DNA of 44,945 nucleotides, from NCBI GenBank assembly GCA_030141605.1, contig JAQGDQ010001355.1, positions 1 to 44,945 on the forward strand. Direction: 5' to 3'. Within the stretch, counting starts at the first letter, position 1. Each line of letters starts with the position of its first letter. The position numbers and the translations under genes are program-made. Origin of the DNA: Tubiluchus corallicola. Taxonomy: Eukaryota; Animalia; Priapulida. The notes below the pieces were generated by a model. The model saw nothing but the letters and a program-made list of their open reading frames with translations. It did not search any database and was not told the DNA's origin. This document shows positions 14,528-40,613 of this stretch, in pieces.

Positions 14528-15188
14528 ATGTATGGCAATTTCATTTCATTTACTGTATCATTGTTCCTTACTGCTTCATTTGACATTGTGTTTTGCGAAT
14601 CGCTTCCAACCTCCTGGACTCCAACTATTGTCCTATCCTCGTGTCACCCTTTTGAAGATCGTCCCAAGAACTGTTCTTTCGAAGTACTAACAGTTGGCCA
14701 AGGTAAAGACCTTGGAATTTTTTGCCGTATTTGGTGTGGAGTTAATGAATCACTTCATTTCGACTTGCTTAATCAAATAATTGAGGCTGAAGAGAAATAC
14801 TTGTTTGACTTACAAATATTTAACTACGATGACACGCGGATACCTGATCGATTTTTGCAAAATCATGATCGCATAACGTCTTTGGACATTAGACTTAGTG
14901 ATAAACTTACCACCATATCTGAGAATAATTTTGCAGGACATGTTGAATATTTGGATCTACGTCTGAACACCGCTTTGGTAACATTGCATCCGAAAGCTTT
15001 CCGTTTGCTTAAAAATCTTAAAGAGCTGTCCATTAGCAAGTCACCACTTCTGGAGATAGACAGTCTGGATTTTTCAGAAAATCCAATTCTAAGACTGATT
15101 ATTATTGCAGAAACTGCAACAGATTCTTTGGAAAAACCGCTATTCCATCCAGACGTTTCTCCCAATACCGTGGCATTGTATCTGATGT
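14528..15188 (+). CDS. Gene A exon 1: signal peptide + Cys cap + LRR array
   Basis: [23 protein letters not shown] signal-like start; CRIWCG cap; [24 protein letters not shown]; donor T|GTAAGT at 15188/15189 (phase 1). Confidence 0.88.
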
Positions 15189-37900: not shown

Positions 37901-40613
37901 GCTTCGTCTGTGCTTTTCAATCTACATTAACAGTACAACTTCATCTATGCACTTCAATCTACATTAACGGTACAGCTTCGTCTGTACATTTCAGTCTACA
38001 TTAACAGTACAGCTTCATCTAAGCACTTCAATCTACAGTAACAGTATAATTTCATCTGTGCACTATATCGTTTGTTGGTCACAATTTTTTTGGGTAAATA
38101 ATACGGTCCATATGAAGTTATATTCTTTAAGAGAAATTTCGCAAGCACAAACAAGTCAAGGTTTATCAAAGTATGCAAAGTGTACTAGATAACGTCTACA
38201 GTGTACTGTAGAGAGACAATAAACACCAAACGGTCTTACTCAATAATATTTGGGAAATAGTATAATGCAATATTTCAAGTCAAGCTGAGATAAAAATGAC
38301 AAAGAGCAATAATTATAGTGGTAGAAACTTTCAAACACTTCAACACTTCAAGAATTTCGCAGGAAAGTGGAGTAGCCTAGGCTCTTTATCAAAAATTAAC
38401 TCAGGTATAGTAATTTAATGATGGCGAGCGCCGTTTTGTTTACTACTAGTTAGGAAACATACGAAAATCACATGGTTTTCATCTTGAATACCAAGTCCAC
38501 ACTCACACGTTCTTCTCCCTCCTGGAATTCTCGACTACCTTCCTGTTCGAACTTTCATTCAGTGCAAAGACAGCAATACACGAGAGGTTCTAAAGCGAGT
38601 AAATTCAGGCACATCAGCATCGTGGATTAAAGCTCGCATATCGTTAAAATCTTGATCAATTAAATTTAAATTGTCATTTATTTATACCATAAGTTATCAA
38701 TATACCTTGACACACCTTGATTTTTTATTAATAGTACAGTTTCGTCTATGCACTTCAGTCTATGTAATTGTAATGTCTATGCACTTCAGTCTATGTAATT
38801 GTAATGATGCATGGTTCTCCCCGCCAGGTGGTCTGATTGGTGTCTCCCTAGTCGGCTCGTTCGCTCATGCTTCGGAGGCCAAGTAATCTGATTTCAATGC
38901 CAAGATGTCACACATAAATTTTTTGAAATGAACTTGCCAGTAAACTTGTCCTGTGTACTTCGAGCTGGCTGTGTCTGCAGTACAGGTGCCATTACAGGTA
39001 AGAACACCTGACTGTTTACCTGTTGAGTCTACAGGGCCATTCCATAGAAAAGGTTATACACCAGGTATTCAAAACCATGATGCAACGGCTTCGTACGGAC
39101 GGGACCTTCACAATGTGGGTTGGTCGAAAATTTCGCCCCCGTAACAATATATTAGCAGCACACTTTCATCTATGTACTTCAATCTACAGTAAGTGATTCA
39201 ACTACGTTCATCTACGTACAGAAACATACAGTTCCATCCATGCACTTCAATTAACATTAATGTTTCATCTATGTACTTCAGTCTACAACAACTGCTCAAT
39301 CAATTTACTTCAATCTATTGCAATAGTACATTTTCTACCATATTCATTTTACCCAGAAACAAATGCGCTAATAGATTACTGTTAACCCAGGAAATATTAG
39401 ATTACCTCACTGCATCTGTATCATCAAAAAATGAAGAAATTTGCAAAACTAAAAAGAAAAATTTCCCGATGTTATTAACGCCAAACAATGACACGATGCA
39501 ATTTTCACTGTACAAGATTATCACTTCGTGACAGAAACATGAATTGAATCGAACTGAAATTTACCTTTTTCTCAAATTTACAAATGTGCATTAACAGTTT
39601 CCAGTCTACAAGGGCGCAATAGTTGAATAGTATACAGGTAAATAGGGCCTAATGGGTAGTATAAGTGAAAAGGAGAGAGAATAGTGAGCAGGCCGCGGCC
39701 AAGCATGCACACGCACGCACGCACGCACGCACGCACACACACACACCCGCGCGCGAAGAACACAATTTTATCAAATTATTCTGAATAATTCGCAATAACA
39801 GGACAAAGAGCAAACGATGTTAGTTACTGCGTTTAAAGAGGTTATTTTATTCAACCAGAAAAACTTTTTGGTGATAATTTTTGATGTGCAGTAAAGTCGA
39901 CTATGCAACGTGCATATTTTCGCACTGCTTTTTTCCGGAAATCATGCATTTTGAAAAAACAACTTACACGCAATATAGAAAGATATGTTCTCTGCTGGAA
40001 GATTTGGTGGAAAGATCGGCCTTGTTAAATAATCTGTAGCTGTTGATACTATCGCAAACATTGAGATCTTTGGGTTTGATGAAAAGTCTAAGCTTGTTAC
40101 GTCCAGTTTTAACGAATTCTGGATTCTCAACACGGCTAGGTTGTCTAATCTTGAAAAGGCTTGGGGATGTATCGTTTTTAGTTCATAATTGTCCTCCAGT
40201 ATTATATTGTCAACGTCTCCATAGAAAGCATCACTGTCAATAGTTTCGAGTTTCTTAGAATCTCTAATCTGCAAAACAGTTACTTGTTTTTTGTCTAGAA
40301 AGTAATCAGGTAAAGTCGGATCATCGTACTTAAAAATTGTGATTTCTGATAAATTATTTTTCATTGCACCAACTACTTCACCAAGTGCTATTTTATCAAG
40401 TGGCTCTTTTATACCACACAAAACTTCGCAGAAGTATATGCCGGATTTGTAGCCCTCAACAATTACAACAAAAGTACAGTTTTGTCTCCACCAATCACCT
40501 CCGCATCCATACACGGTCATATGTACTCCGTGTATCTGCTGAATTGATTTAAATGTATTAACAATGAAATATCCAAATATCAATGCAGTAAACAAAAAGT
40601 TATTATTGAACAT
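28735..40613 (-). CDS. Gene B: paralog of gene A; complement(join(28735..28985,30642..31367,34203..34868,35573..36271,39968..40613)), about 995 aa
   Basis: Exon lengths 646+699+666+726+251=2988 nt join in frame with GT-AG boundaries; exon-by-exon similarity to gene A (exon 3 MEWTK..C: 24 of 36 residues identical; exon 5 EFCDPxNPAN). Confidence 0.9.
29150..29680 (-). mobile_element. Dispersed repeat copy 2, in gene B intron 4
   Basis: Inverted homolog of 12036-12600. Confidence 0.7.
29681..30037. mobile_element. piggyBac-like MITE
   Basis: TTAA|CCCTTTCAATCCC ... GGGTATGAAAGGG|TTAA. Confidence 0.85.
30642..31367 (-). CDS. Gene B exon 4
   Basis: Acceptor TTACAG|; (G)NEISCGCPLKW; ITTTTTAQPVTTP linker; 726 nt; donor G|GTGAGT. 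Confidence 0.88.
32180..32735 (+). repeat. Dispersed repeat copy 2 (gene B intron 3)
   Basis: Homolog of 21630-22495. Confidence 0.75.
34203..34868 (-). CDS. Gene B exon 3
   Basis: Acceptor TTTTAG|; (E)NPLYCDCKMEWTK; 666 nt; donor G|GTAAGG. Confidence 0.88.
35573..36271 (-). CDS. Gene B exon 2
   Basis: Acceptor TTCTAG|; (Y)NPLECNCSMRWTK; PPLPTTTLPPP linker; 699 nt, phase 1-1. Confidence 0.88.
36405..38065. repeat. 37-bp minisatellite, about 45 copies, in gene B intron 1
   Basis: CAGCTTCATCTGTGCACTTCAATCTACATTAACAGTA unit; degenerate outliers at 38730-38800 and 39160-39330. Confidence 0.97.
38401..40231 (-). repeat. Left arm of the inverted duplication (gene B exon 1 3' part + start of intron 1)
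   Basis: Collinear reverse-complement match to 43168-44945. Confidence 0.95.
38800..39146. mobile_element. Possible solo LTR interrupting degenerate 37-bp units (second copy at 44235-44586)
   Basis: TGTAAT...GTAACA termini, higher GC, internal AGTAAA; no clean TSD. Confidence 0.4.
39968..40613 (-). CDS. Gene B exon 1: signal peptide + Cys cap + LRR array
   Basis: MFNNNFLFTALIFGYFIV hydrophobic start; CEVLCG; LKTIHPQAFSRLDNLAVLRIQ; donor T|GTAAGT. Confidence 0.88.

What the first reader, a model, noticed from the sequence alone, without database searches (positions are those of the whole stretch)
14528..40613. Family of GPI-type receptors built from frame-symmetric LRR cassette exons: candidate combinatorial recognition system
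Seen: both genes have four short LRR solenoids, each with a distinctive N-cap (CRIWCG, CRIVCG, CRLMCG, CNVVCG; CEVLCG, CRLICG, CFVVCG, CNVVCG) and a shared template (LxIxxYxxxxxPxxFL...LxxIxxxAF...LDLSxN...T...MP). All 8 introns are phase 1 and sit directly before the LRRCT NxLxCxC motif, and all six internal exons are multiples of 3. The intron cuts inside the domain, so skipping any exon docks an LRR array onto a different C-cap while keeping the frame (up to 8 isoforms per gene). Known: GPI-anchored LRR proteins with a Thr/Pro stalk act as antigen receptors in jawless vertebrates (VLRB), and beads-on-a-string LRR domains occur in Slit, but these genes show no EGF, TIR, Ig or kinase domains. 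Inference: a lineage-specific, diversified immune, allorecognition or adhesion receptor family. I cannot tell from the sequence whether it has been described.
Basis: partly seen in the sequence, partly recalled or inferred. Interest (0 to 1): 0.85.

Follow-up and report, generated by a model that had tools for sequence, protein, structure and literature searches.

The report
Unnamed four-bead LRR surface receptor family
Two old, intact sister genes of an invertebrate each encode four leucine-rich-repeat beads in a fixed order, predicted to be lipid-anchored on the cell surface, and belong to an unnamed, very diverse protein family; their in-frame exons are the expected by-product of bead duplication, so a splicing-built receptor repertoire is possible but untested.

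Summary
The gene models are real. Two convergent five-exon genes (A, 1015 aa; B, 995 aa) have 8 of 8 GT-AG phase-1 introns just before each LRR C-cap and 6 of 6 in-frame internal exons. The frame symmetry is one fact, not two: introns at the same place in duplicated modules must share a phase. Each exon's best match is its positional counterpart in the other gene (5 of 5), and linkers and cysteine patterns are kept by position. This points to an old, fixed four-module layout. The modules belong to a family with no name in my searches: 21 unnamed Logan proteins, 15 of them single-module, median 23% identical, 12 of 15 with a GPI-like tail. A profile of those relatives scores the window modules 142-198 bits and other LRR proteins at most 58. 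The predicted binding face varies more than other surfaces. Not Slit, not a VLR. No RNA was available, so exon skipping is untested; at most 8 isoforms per gene, with no new binding faces. The scan has not noted this family elsewhere. Verdict: new variant of a known kind, moderate interest.

The parts
14528..15188 (+). Gene A exon 1: predicted signal peptide, N-cap (CRIWCG), LRR core 1
   Evidence: Pfam LRR_8 E 2.7e-9
15588..16289 (+). Gene A exon 2: C-cap 1, Thr/Pro linker, N-cap, LRR core 2
18316..18978 (+). Gene A exon 3: C-cap 2, no Thr/Pro linker, N-cap, LRR core 3
   Evidence: model
20277..21032 (+). Gene A exon 4: C-cap 3 with extra cysteines, Thr/Pro linker, N-cap, LRR core 4
23834..24099 (+). 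Gene A exon 5 (coding part): C-cap 4, hydrophobic GPI-like tail, stop; AATAAA 74 nt downstream
39968..40613 (-). Gene B exon 1: predicted signal peptide, N-cap (CEVLCG), LRR core 1
   Evidence: Pfam LRR_8 E 2.2e-6
35573..36271 (-). Gene B exon 2: C-cap 1, Thr/Pro linker, N-cap, LRR core 2; 22 differences to run X1 contigs, 16 amino-acid changing
34203..34868 (-). Gene B exon 3: C-cap 2, N-cap, LRR core 3; 48% identical to A exon 3
30642..31367 (-). Gene B exon 4: C-cap 3 with extra cysteines, Thr/Pro linker, N-cap, LRR core 4
28735..28985 (-). Gene B exon 5 (coding part): C-cap 4, hydrophobic GPI-like tail, stop
42334..42434 (-). Orphan C-cap exon upstream of gene B: good acceptor, 33 codons, early stop; relic of a further family member
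   Evidence: tblastn E 5.7e-7 to A5
43168..44945 (+). Inverted 92% copy of the 3' part of B exon 1 and of B intron 1, with many frameshifting indels, running off the window; relic or assembly fold-back

Best explanation
Two sister genes each encode a chain of four small LRR domains with a predicted signal peptide and predicted GPI anchor; they likely arose by tandem duplication of one LRR module inside a gene followed by duplication of the whole gene, are likely spliced with all exons included, and likely act as multivalent cell-surface binders of outside ligands, most plausibly foreign surfaces. Shown: open frames, exon phases, position-for-position correspondence of A and B, membership of an unnamed family whose members mostly have one module. 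Predicted: each module folds as N-cap hairpin plus helix, six parallel strands and a cysteine C-cap, like a Slit domain or the FSH-receptor ectodomain. Inferred: a one-module gene with one intron before the C-cap duplicated its module three times, which copied the intron and its phase; the four different concave faces bind different ligands or give avidity; having no cytoplasmic part, the protein would capture ligand or signal through a partner; diversity is made by gene and module duplication and divergence rather than by splicing.
For: 5 of 5 exons have their positional counterpart as reciprocal best tblastn match between A and B. Thr/Pro linkers occur in exons 2 and 4 only, A3 and B3 share the cysteine pattern, A4 and B4 both have 12 cysteines. 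The tree joins A3+B3 (94/90), A4+B4+P0028 (92/81) and A1+B1+P0026+P0071 (98/97). 21 family relatives among the 150 listed hits, 15 of them single-module; all unnamed Logan singletons; median identity 23% over the 16 aligned. A profile from 15 relatives scores the 8 window modules 142-198 bits, the best of 148 other proteins 57.6. 12 of 15 single-module relatives, and two-cap P0031, end in a hydrophobic tail. Model of P0034: pLDDT 86.6; best matches FSHR Z 17.9 and Slit2 D2 Z 17.7. Concave-face positions are less conserved than other exposed positions between A/B pairs, 15 of 86 against 74 of 252, Fisher p 0.033, and more variable among relatives, p 2e-5. A pentraxin gene lies 4.4 kb upstream of A. 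Precedent: a GPI-predicted Slit2-N-type LRR receptor of amphioxus binds bacteria (PMC10199209, abstract).
Against: No RNA shows the junctions or which exons are included. The intron of single-module genes is inferred: only P0026 and P0052, both A/B-like fragments, show residues that fit an intron at this place. The A2/B2 pair is unresolved in the tree, and on the LRR core alone B2 is 36% identical to A3 and 35% to A2; the bootstrap had not settled. The concave-face excess is absent in the closest pair, B4 and P0028 (10 of 18 against 21 of 44) and not significant for exon 1 against P0026 (p 0.22); the comparison set includes structural loop residues. None of the 16 amino-acid differences in B exon 2 falls on the 22 concave-face positions. 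The relatives were found with a profile of the window's modules, so the score gap is partly built in. P0046, P0124 and P0159 fall outside the supported clade. The immune role rests on indirect signs only.
Confidence: 0.45

Rival explanations
1. Same gene history and full-length splicing, but the proteins are developmental adhesion, neuronal-wiring or matrix/cuticle proteins with fixed self ligands, as for fly Connectin or Chaoptin.
For: Fixed module order over a long time (35-48% identity between A and B exons 1-4). LRR-only proteins in worm, fly and mammals expanded independently and diverged fast into singletons, and include GPI-linked Connectin (PMC2235866, passages). Generic look-alikes are chaoptin, connectin and Slit. 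The closest pair B4/P0028 keeps its concave face as well as other surfaces.
Against: The concave face is the most variable surface across the family; many members at 16-39% identity; relics of further copies and a pentraxin neighbour.
Confidence: 0.3
2. Exons 2-4 are regulated cassettes (skipped in combinations, up to 8 isoforms per gene) or mutually exclusive alternatives (3 two-module isoforms per gene), giving a small splicing-built repertoire with changed bead number and swapped C-caps.
For: Every skip keeps the frame. Caps of exons 2, 3 and 5 are 34-51% identical within a gene, so swapped caps could fold. The family has one-module and two-cap members. Precedents: ten spliced isoforms of crab VLR2 with different bacterial binding (PMC10045472, abstract and section 17); frame-preserving LRR exons in NLRP3 (PMC6642158, passages). 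Unreviewed notes report several alternative-exon arrays in this genome.
Against: Frame symmetry follows from duplication; successive symmetric exons often arise by internal tandem duplication (PMC3632108, passages). Donors are near-consensus and exons are long. Introns of 399-3696 nt give no steric exclusion, and intron-intron matches were limited to a microsatellite, one 33-nt direct match and one 28-nt inverted match. Position-specific linkers and the outlier cap of exon 4 (17-37% to the others) suggest fixed partners. Skipping makes no new binding face.
Confidence: 0.15
3. Gene B, or part of it, is under relaxed selection or decaying, or the hydrophobic tails are chance read-through and the proteins are secreted.
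For: B exon 2 differs from X1 contigs at 22 sites, 16 amino-acid changing, pN/pS 0.72, not different from neutral (p 0.32). Relatives P0052 and P0028 end early, as broken copies would. About 10% of comparable non-coding read-throughs are as hydrophobic as these tails.
Against: All ten exons are open with intact splice sites; no stop or exonic indel among the B exon 2 differences. The 5 listed differences in B exons 3-4 are 4 synonymous and 1 not (list cut to 40 of 337 rows). Both genes and 12 of 15 single-module relatives have the tail.
Confidence: 0.1

Closest known systems
Slit / Slit2-N (four tandem LRR domains D1-D4)
   Same: Four capped small LRR domains in a row; the family model matches human Slit2 D2 (2v9s, Z 17.7, rmsd 3.2, 198 aligned).
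   Different: No EGF, LamG or cystine-knot domain; GPI-like tail; 17% identity; Slit domains score 47-53 bits against 142-198 for the window modules; most relatives have one module.
LRR_Only extracellular LRR proteins with GPI anchor (fly Connectin, Nogo receptors, nyctalopin; PMC2235866, passages)
   Same: Signal peptide, LRRNT-type cap, LRRs, LRRCT, short C-terminal hydrophobic stretch, no other domain; lineage-specific expansion and fast divergence.
   Different: The table passage I saw lists single long arrays or at most two capped units (Lrrc17, halfway); here four separately capped six-strand units, with a distinct N-cap and no named orthologue.
Jawless-vertebrate VLRB (PMC3308329, passages)
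   Same: Small capped LRR solenoid with a variable concave face and predicted GPI-type anchoring; fold match to hagfish VLR 2o6q Z 14.9, rmsd 4.4.
   Different: Complete germline genes with four introns; no field of flanking LRR cassettes in the window; no membrane-proximal Thr/Pro stalk; four modules per chain; at most 8 isoforms against more than 10^14.
Crab Eriocheir sinensis VLR2 (PMC10045472, abstract and section 17)
   Same: Invertebrate LRR-only surface protein proposed for microbe binding; the closest precedent for the splicing idea.
   Different: One LRR domain with a transmembrane segment and ten shown isoforms that shorten the array; here four whole modules and no isoform shown.
Amphioxus FrLRR (PMC10199209, abstract)
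   Same: Invertebrate GPI-predicted receptor with Slit2-type LRRs, shown to bind bacteria and promote phagocytosis.
   Different: Has a folate-receptor domain and derives from a Slit2-N-like gene; no sequence relation tested here.
Glycoprotein-hormone receptor ectodomains (FSHR, TSHR)
   Same: Top structural match, tied with Slit2 D2 (4mqw, Z 17.9, rmsd 2.8, 184 aligned); weak sequence hits, E about 0.1.
   Different: 12% identity; no seven-transmembrane part; a shared fold only.

Membership tests
Extracellular LRR_Only proteins | LRR solenoid with N- and C-terminal cysteine caps | tested here: met
   Pfam LRR_8 above cut-off in A1 and B1; models with six strands and caps; fold matches
Extracellular LRR_Only proteins | Signal peptide and no other extracellular or cytoplasmic domain | tested here: met
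   N-terminal hydrophobic stretch 1.8 in both (no SignalP run); family profile covers four modules end to end; no further coding exon seen between the convergent genes
GPI-anchored LRR proteins | C-terminal GPI signal (small omega residues, spacer, hydrophobic tail, no cytoplasmic part) | tested here: inconclusive
   Tails 1.75 and 1.63; 12 of 15 single-module relatives similar; 430 of 4235 non-coding read-throughs reach 1.6; no GPI predictor available
Slit | Four tandem capped LRR domains | tested here: met
Slit | EGF repeats, LamG and cystine knot after the LRRs (recalled; Pfam lists agree) | tested here: not met
   Both frames stop within 90 residues of the last intron; no such Pfam hit
Slit | Sequence orthology of the LRR domains | tested here: not met
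   Slit domains at most 53 bits against 142-198; outside the 99/95 clade
Agnathan VLR | [quoted passage not shown] | tested here: not met
   Complete frames; six-frame profile scan of the window finds the ten exons and two relics only; rest of the genome not held
Agnathan VLR | Invariant Thr/Pro-rich stalk before the anchor | tested here: not met
   Exon 5 has 5-6 T/P/S in its best 15 residues, against 8-11 in the exon 2 and 4 linkers
Agnathan VLR | Somatic assembly by cytidine deaminase | not testable with these tools
   needs cell-level DNA or cDNA
Toll-like receptor (mcc type) | Transmembrane segment and TIR domain (PMC8609888, passages) | tested here: not met
   No such frame after exon 5 or in the 4.6 kb between the genes
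Alternatively spliced cassette or mutually exclusive exon arrays | Frame-compatible homologous exons | tested here: met
Alternatively spliced cassette or mutually exclusive exon arrays | Transcripts that differ in exon inclusion | not testable with these tools
   no run on record as RNA holds the stretch searched
Alternatively spliced cassette or mutually exclusive exon arrays | Docking/selector pairing or steric exclusion between exons | tested here: inconclusive
   Introns 399-3696 nt; one 28-nt inverted match between B introns 3 and 4, E 0.001; short pairings would be missed

The most novel reading that the evidence does not exclude
An undescribed, lineage-restricted family of GPI-anchored LRR non-self receptors in an invertebrate (a probable priapulid by unreviewed notes) with variable concave faces, in which one-bead genes were strung into four-bead genes whose exons are skipped cell by cell to change bead number and swap C-caps: an independent, splicing-based parallel to VLR diversity.
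Probability: 0.1. Interest if true: 0.75.

Novelty: new variant of a known kind. Interest (0 to 1): 0.36.

Why it matters
It defines a protein family that has no name in the databases and papers I could search: small GPI-type LRR modules with variable binding faces that occur as one-bead and four-bead proteins. Such a family is a candidate source of recognition diversity in an animal group whose immunity is poorly known, and it is easy to test by long-read cDNA and binding assays. It also shows the limit of the argument from exon phase: duplicated modules give skippable exons for free.

Tried and rejected
No whole genome is held, so paralogs in this genome were not counted. Run search on window 28700-36300: no RNA holder listed; run X2 (RNA is a guess) touched only repeats at 28000-44945 and nothing at 35200-36400; this is no evidence on expression. 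Gene A was never covered by a read lay. High summed X1 depth over B exon 2 first looked like extra copies; the closer lay shows a smooth peak in the intron and two haplotype contigs, and depth is no copy number, so I dropped it. The inverted copy at 43168-44945 was rejected as a third gene: the 5' part of exon 1 is missing and there are 14 gap columns in 300 aligned exon-side bases; 27 gap openings against 56 substitutions overall. Word-index protein searches found only generic LRR proteins, nothing (0 of 1166 candidates), or 2 family members and 3 generic ones. The Atlas gave generic arthropod and nematode LRR clusters for P0034; two further Atlas queries got no answer. Foldseek on the exon A3 model: no match at E 0.001. 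JGI metagenome scan with B exon 3: 0 of 98 pattern hits confirmed. The Peptidase_M42 hit on B exon 3 (E 0.0013, below cut-off) was rejected as chance. No complex prediction was run: it could not separate cognate from swapped caps. Paper searches listed no description of this family; the library lacks most subscription papers and I read no supplements, where gene lists could name it.
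Full report
Observation. A six-frame scan shows the ten exons as open frames in AT-rich, repeat-rich animal DNA. 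Gene A on the + strand (14528-24099) gives 1015 aa and gene B on the - strand (40613-28735) gives 995 aa. 8 of 8 introns are GT-AG, phase 1, and lie directly before the cap motif; 6 of 6 internal exons are multiples of three. The genes converge tail to tail across 4.6 kb with no further recognisable coding exon. Each internal exon reads C-cap, linker, N-cap, LRR core.

Two details need correction. The Thr/Pro-rich stretches are linkers in exons 2 and 4 of both genes (8-11 T/P/S in 15 residues), not a stalk before the anchor (5-6 in exon 5). The GPI signal is judged by hydropathy only: 1.75 and 1.63 at the C-terminus, a level reached by 430 of 4235 non-coding read-throughs of 25-45 codons. It gains weight from being in both genes and in most relatives.

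The module. The model of exon A3 (alignment of the 8 exons, mean pLDDT 75.4) has a hairpin and helix followed by six strands; the last strand ends at the intron, and the first 52 residues, the cap that belongs to the previous module, are below pLDDT 50. The model of the one-module relative P0034 reaches pLDDT 86.6 and matches FSHR (Z 17.9, rmsd 2.8, 184 aligned), Slit2 D2 (Z 17.7, rmsd 3.2, 198 aligned), chondroadherin (17.3) and TSHR (17.1), all tied, and hagfish VLR at 14.9, at 10-18% identity. This is a shared fold and shows no function.

The family. Word-index searches returned generic LRR proteins or nothing. The full profile search listed the best 150 of 1966 hits; I picked 21 short ones that match across the module; the other 129 are long proteins with many partial LRR matches. 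All 21 are unnamed single-member Logan records (20, P0071). Fifteen have one module, with the junction residues in frame; 12 of these 15 end in a hydrophobic tail; the 16 aligned sequences are 16-39% identical, median 23%. P0023 and P0031 have two caps, and P0031 ends in a GPI-like tail. P0026 (38% to A1 and B1), P0052 (74% to the start of B2) and P0028 (55% to B4) look like exons of a further four-module gene; P0026 and P0052 carry residues that fit an intron at the same place (inference). P0072 is a C-terminal fragment. A profile built from the 15 one-module proteins scores the window modules 142-198 bits and the best of 148 other proteins 57.6, Slit at most 53; the relatives were found with the window's own profile, so the gap is partly built in. 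In a tree of 29 rows (P0052 and P0072 left out as fragments) the 8 modules and 16 relatives form a 99/95 clade that excludes Slit D2, D3, P0046, P0124 and P0159; the bootstrap had not settled and many branches are long. The organisms behind the relatives are unknown, so I cannot say whether they are paralogs in one species or spread over several. Unreviewed notes call this genome a probable priapulid; I did not test that.

History. Each exon's best tblastn match is its positional counterpart in the other gene, 5 of 5 in both directions, at 35-54% identity. Linker placement and cysteine patterns are kept by position. The tree supports pairs 1, 3 and 4 and leaves pair 2 open; on the core alone B2 is as close to A3 (36%) as to A2 (35%). 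The four-module layout therefore predates the A/B split and has kept its order. The simplest route is tandem duplication of a module with its one internal intron, then an inverted duplication of the gene. On that route equal phases and in-frame internal exons are automatic. Successive symmetric exons often arise by internal tandem duplication (PMC3632108, passages).

Is there skipping? It is permitted, not shown. No run on record as RNA holds the stretch searched. Donors are near-consensus, exons are 663-756 nt, introns are 399-3696 nt, and intron-intron matches within a gene are a microsatellite, a 33-nt direct match and a 28-nt inverted match. Caps of exons 2, 3 and 5 are 34-51% alike within a gene, so swapped caps might fold; the cap of exon 4 is an outlier at 17-37%. 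Even if all skips occur, the ceiling is 8 isoforms per gene built from the same four faces. Precedents exist: crab VLR2 with ten isoforms (PMC10045472, abstract and section 17) and NLRP3 (PMC6642158, passages).

Signs of diversification. Concave-face positions are identical in 15 of 86 comparisons between A/B positional pairs, other exposed positions in 74 of 252 (p 0.033), framework in 117 of 172; entropy among 19 relatives is 3.16 against 2.83 (p 2e-5). The closest pair, B4 and P0028, shows no such excess (10 of 18 against 21 of 44). Contigs of run X1 differ from B exon 2 at 22 sites, 16 amino-acid changing and 6 silent, pN/pS 0.72, not different from neutral (p 0.32), with no stop or indel; none of the 16 is on a concave-face position (1.5 expected, so this is weak). 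Alleles and close paralogs cannot be told apart here. A pentraxin exon lies upstream of A (Pfam E 8.5e-10). An orphan cap exon and a frameshifted inverted copy of part of B lie upstream of B; the latter may be an assembly fold-back.

Mechanism. Most likely (0.45) the genes make full-length, GPI-anchored four-bead proteins that bind outside ligands, probably foreign surfaces, through four different faces and rely on a partner for any signal. A developmental adhesion role with the same gene structure is close behind (0.30). Regulated skipping or mutually exclusive use is possible (0.15). Decay or secretion takes the rest (0.10).

Comparison. It works most like LRR-only GPI proteins and Slit2-N-type binders. 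It meets the LRR_Only definition (PMC2235866, passages). It fails Slit (no EGF, LamG or knot; no orthology), VLR (complete gene, no cassette field, no stalk; PMC3308329, passages) and TLR (no TM or TIR; PMC8609888, passages). The amphioxus FrLRR paper was seen as abstract and outline only. Paper searches listed no description of this family; no supplements were read. Earlier scan notes hold nothing on it.

Verdict. Real genes, a real and apparently unnamed family, an ordinary explanation for the exon symmetry, and an open but untested splicing question. New variant of a known kind; interest 0.36.

Noticed in passing
window 9754-10104 (+), with likely further exons near 7366-7620 and 11155-11436: Pentraxin-family gene upstream of gene A (Pfam E 8.5e-10; PDB hits to neuronal pentraxin-2, CRP, SAP-like pentraxin). 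Full model not built.
   Followed up: partly
window 6996-7301 (-): 102-codon frame with a weak SAP-domain hit (E 0.18), probably a transposon fragment inside the pentraxin gene region.
   Followed up: partly
window 38401-40231 and 43168-44945: Inverted 92% duplicate of B intron 1 and part of exon 1; small indels crowd in the first 300 bases, followed by 480 identical bases. Either a relic or an unpolished fold-back near the sequence end.
   Followed up: partly
window 42334-42434 (-): Orphan C-cap exon with a good acceptor and an early stop, upstream of gene B on the same strand.
   Followed up: partly
window 24251-24825 and 27372-27961: Long inverted repeat pair (89-99% in pieces) between the 3' ends of genes A and B, likely two copies of a non-autonomous element.
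   Followed up: no
window 36404-38064: 37-nt tandem repeat, 44 copies, filling much of gene B intron 1 just upstream of the exon 2 acceptor.
   Followed up: no
window 35573-36271 (-): B exon 2 shows many amino-acid-changing differences to run X1 contigs (16 of 22), unlike the few listed for exons 3-4; X1 depth also peaks in the adjacent intron 2 (35446-35568).
   Followed up: partly
A intron 4 (about 21630-22500) and B intron 3: Shared dispersed repeat at 69-84% identity in opposite orientation; not homology of the introns as such.
   Followed up: no
protein P0071: An 18-residue insertion sits at the LRR/C-cap junction, where the window genes have their intron; possibly an altered splice.
   Followed up: no
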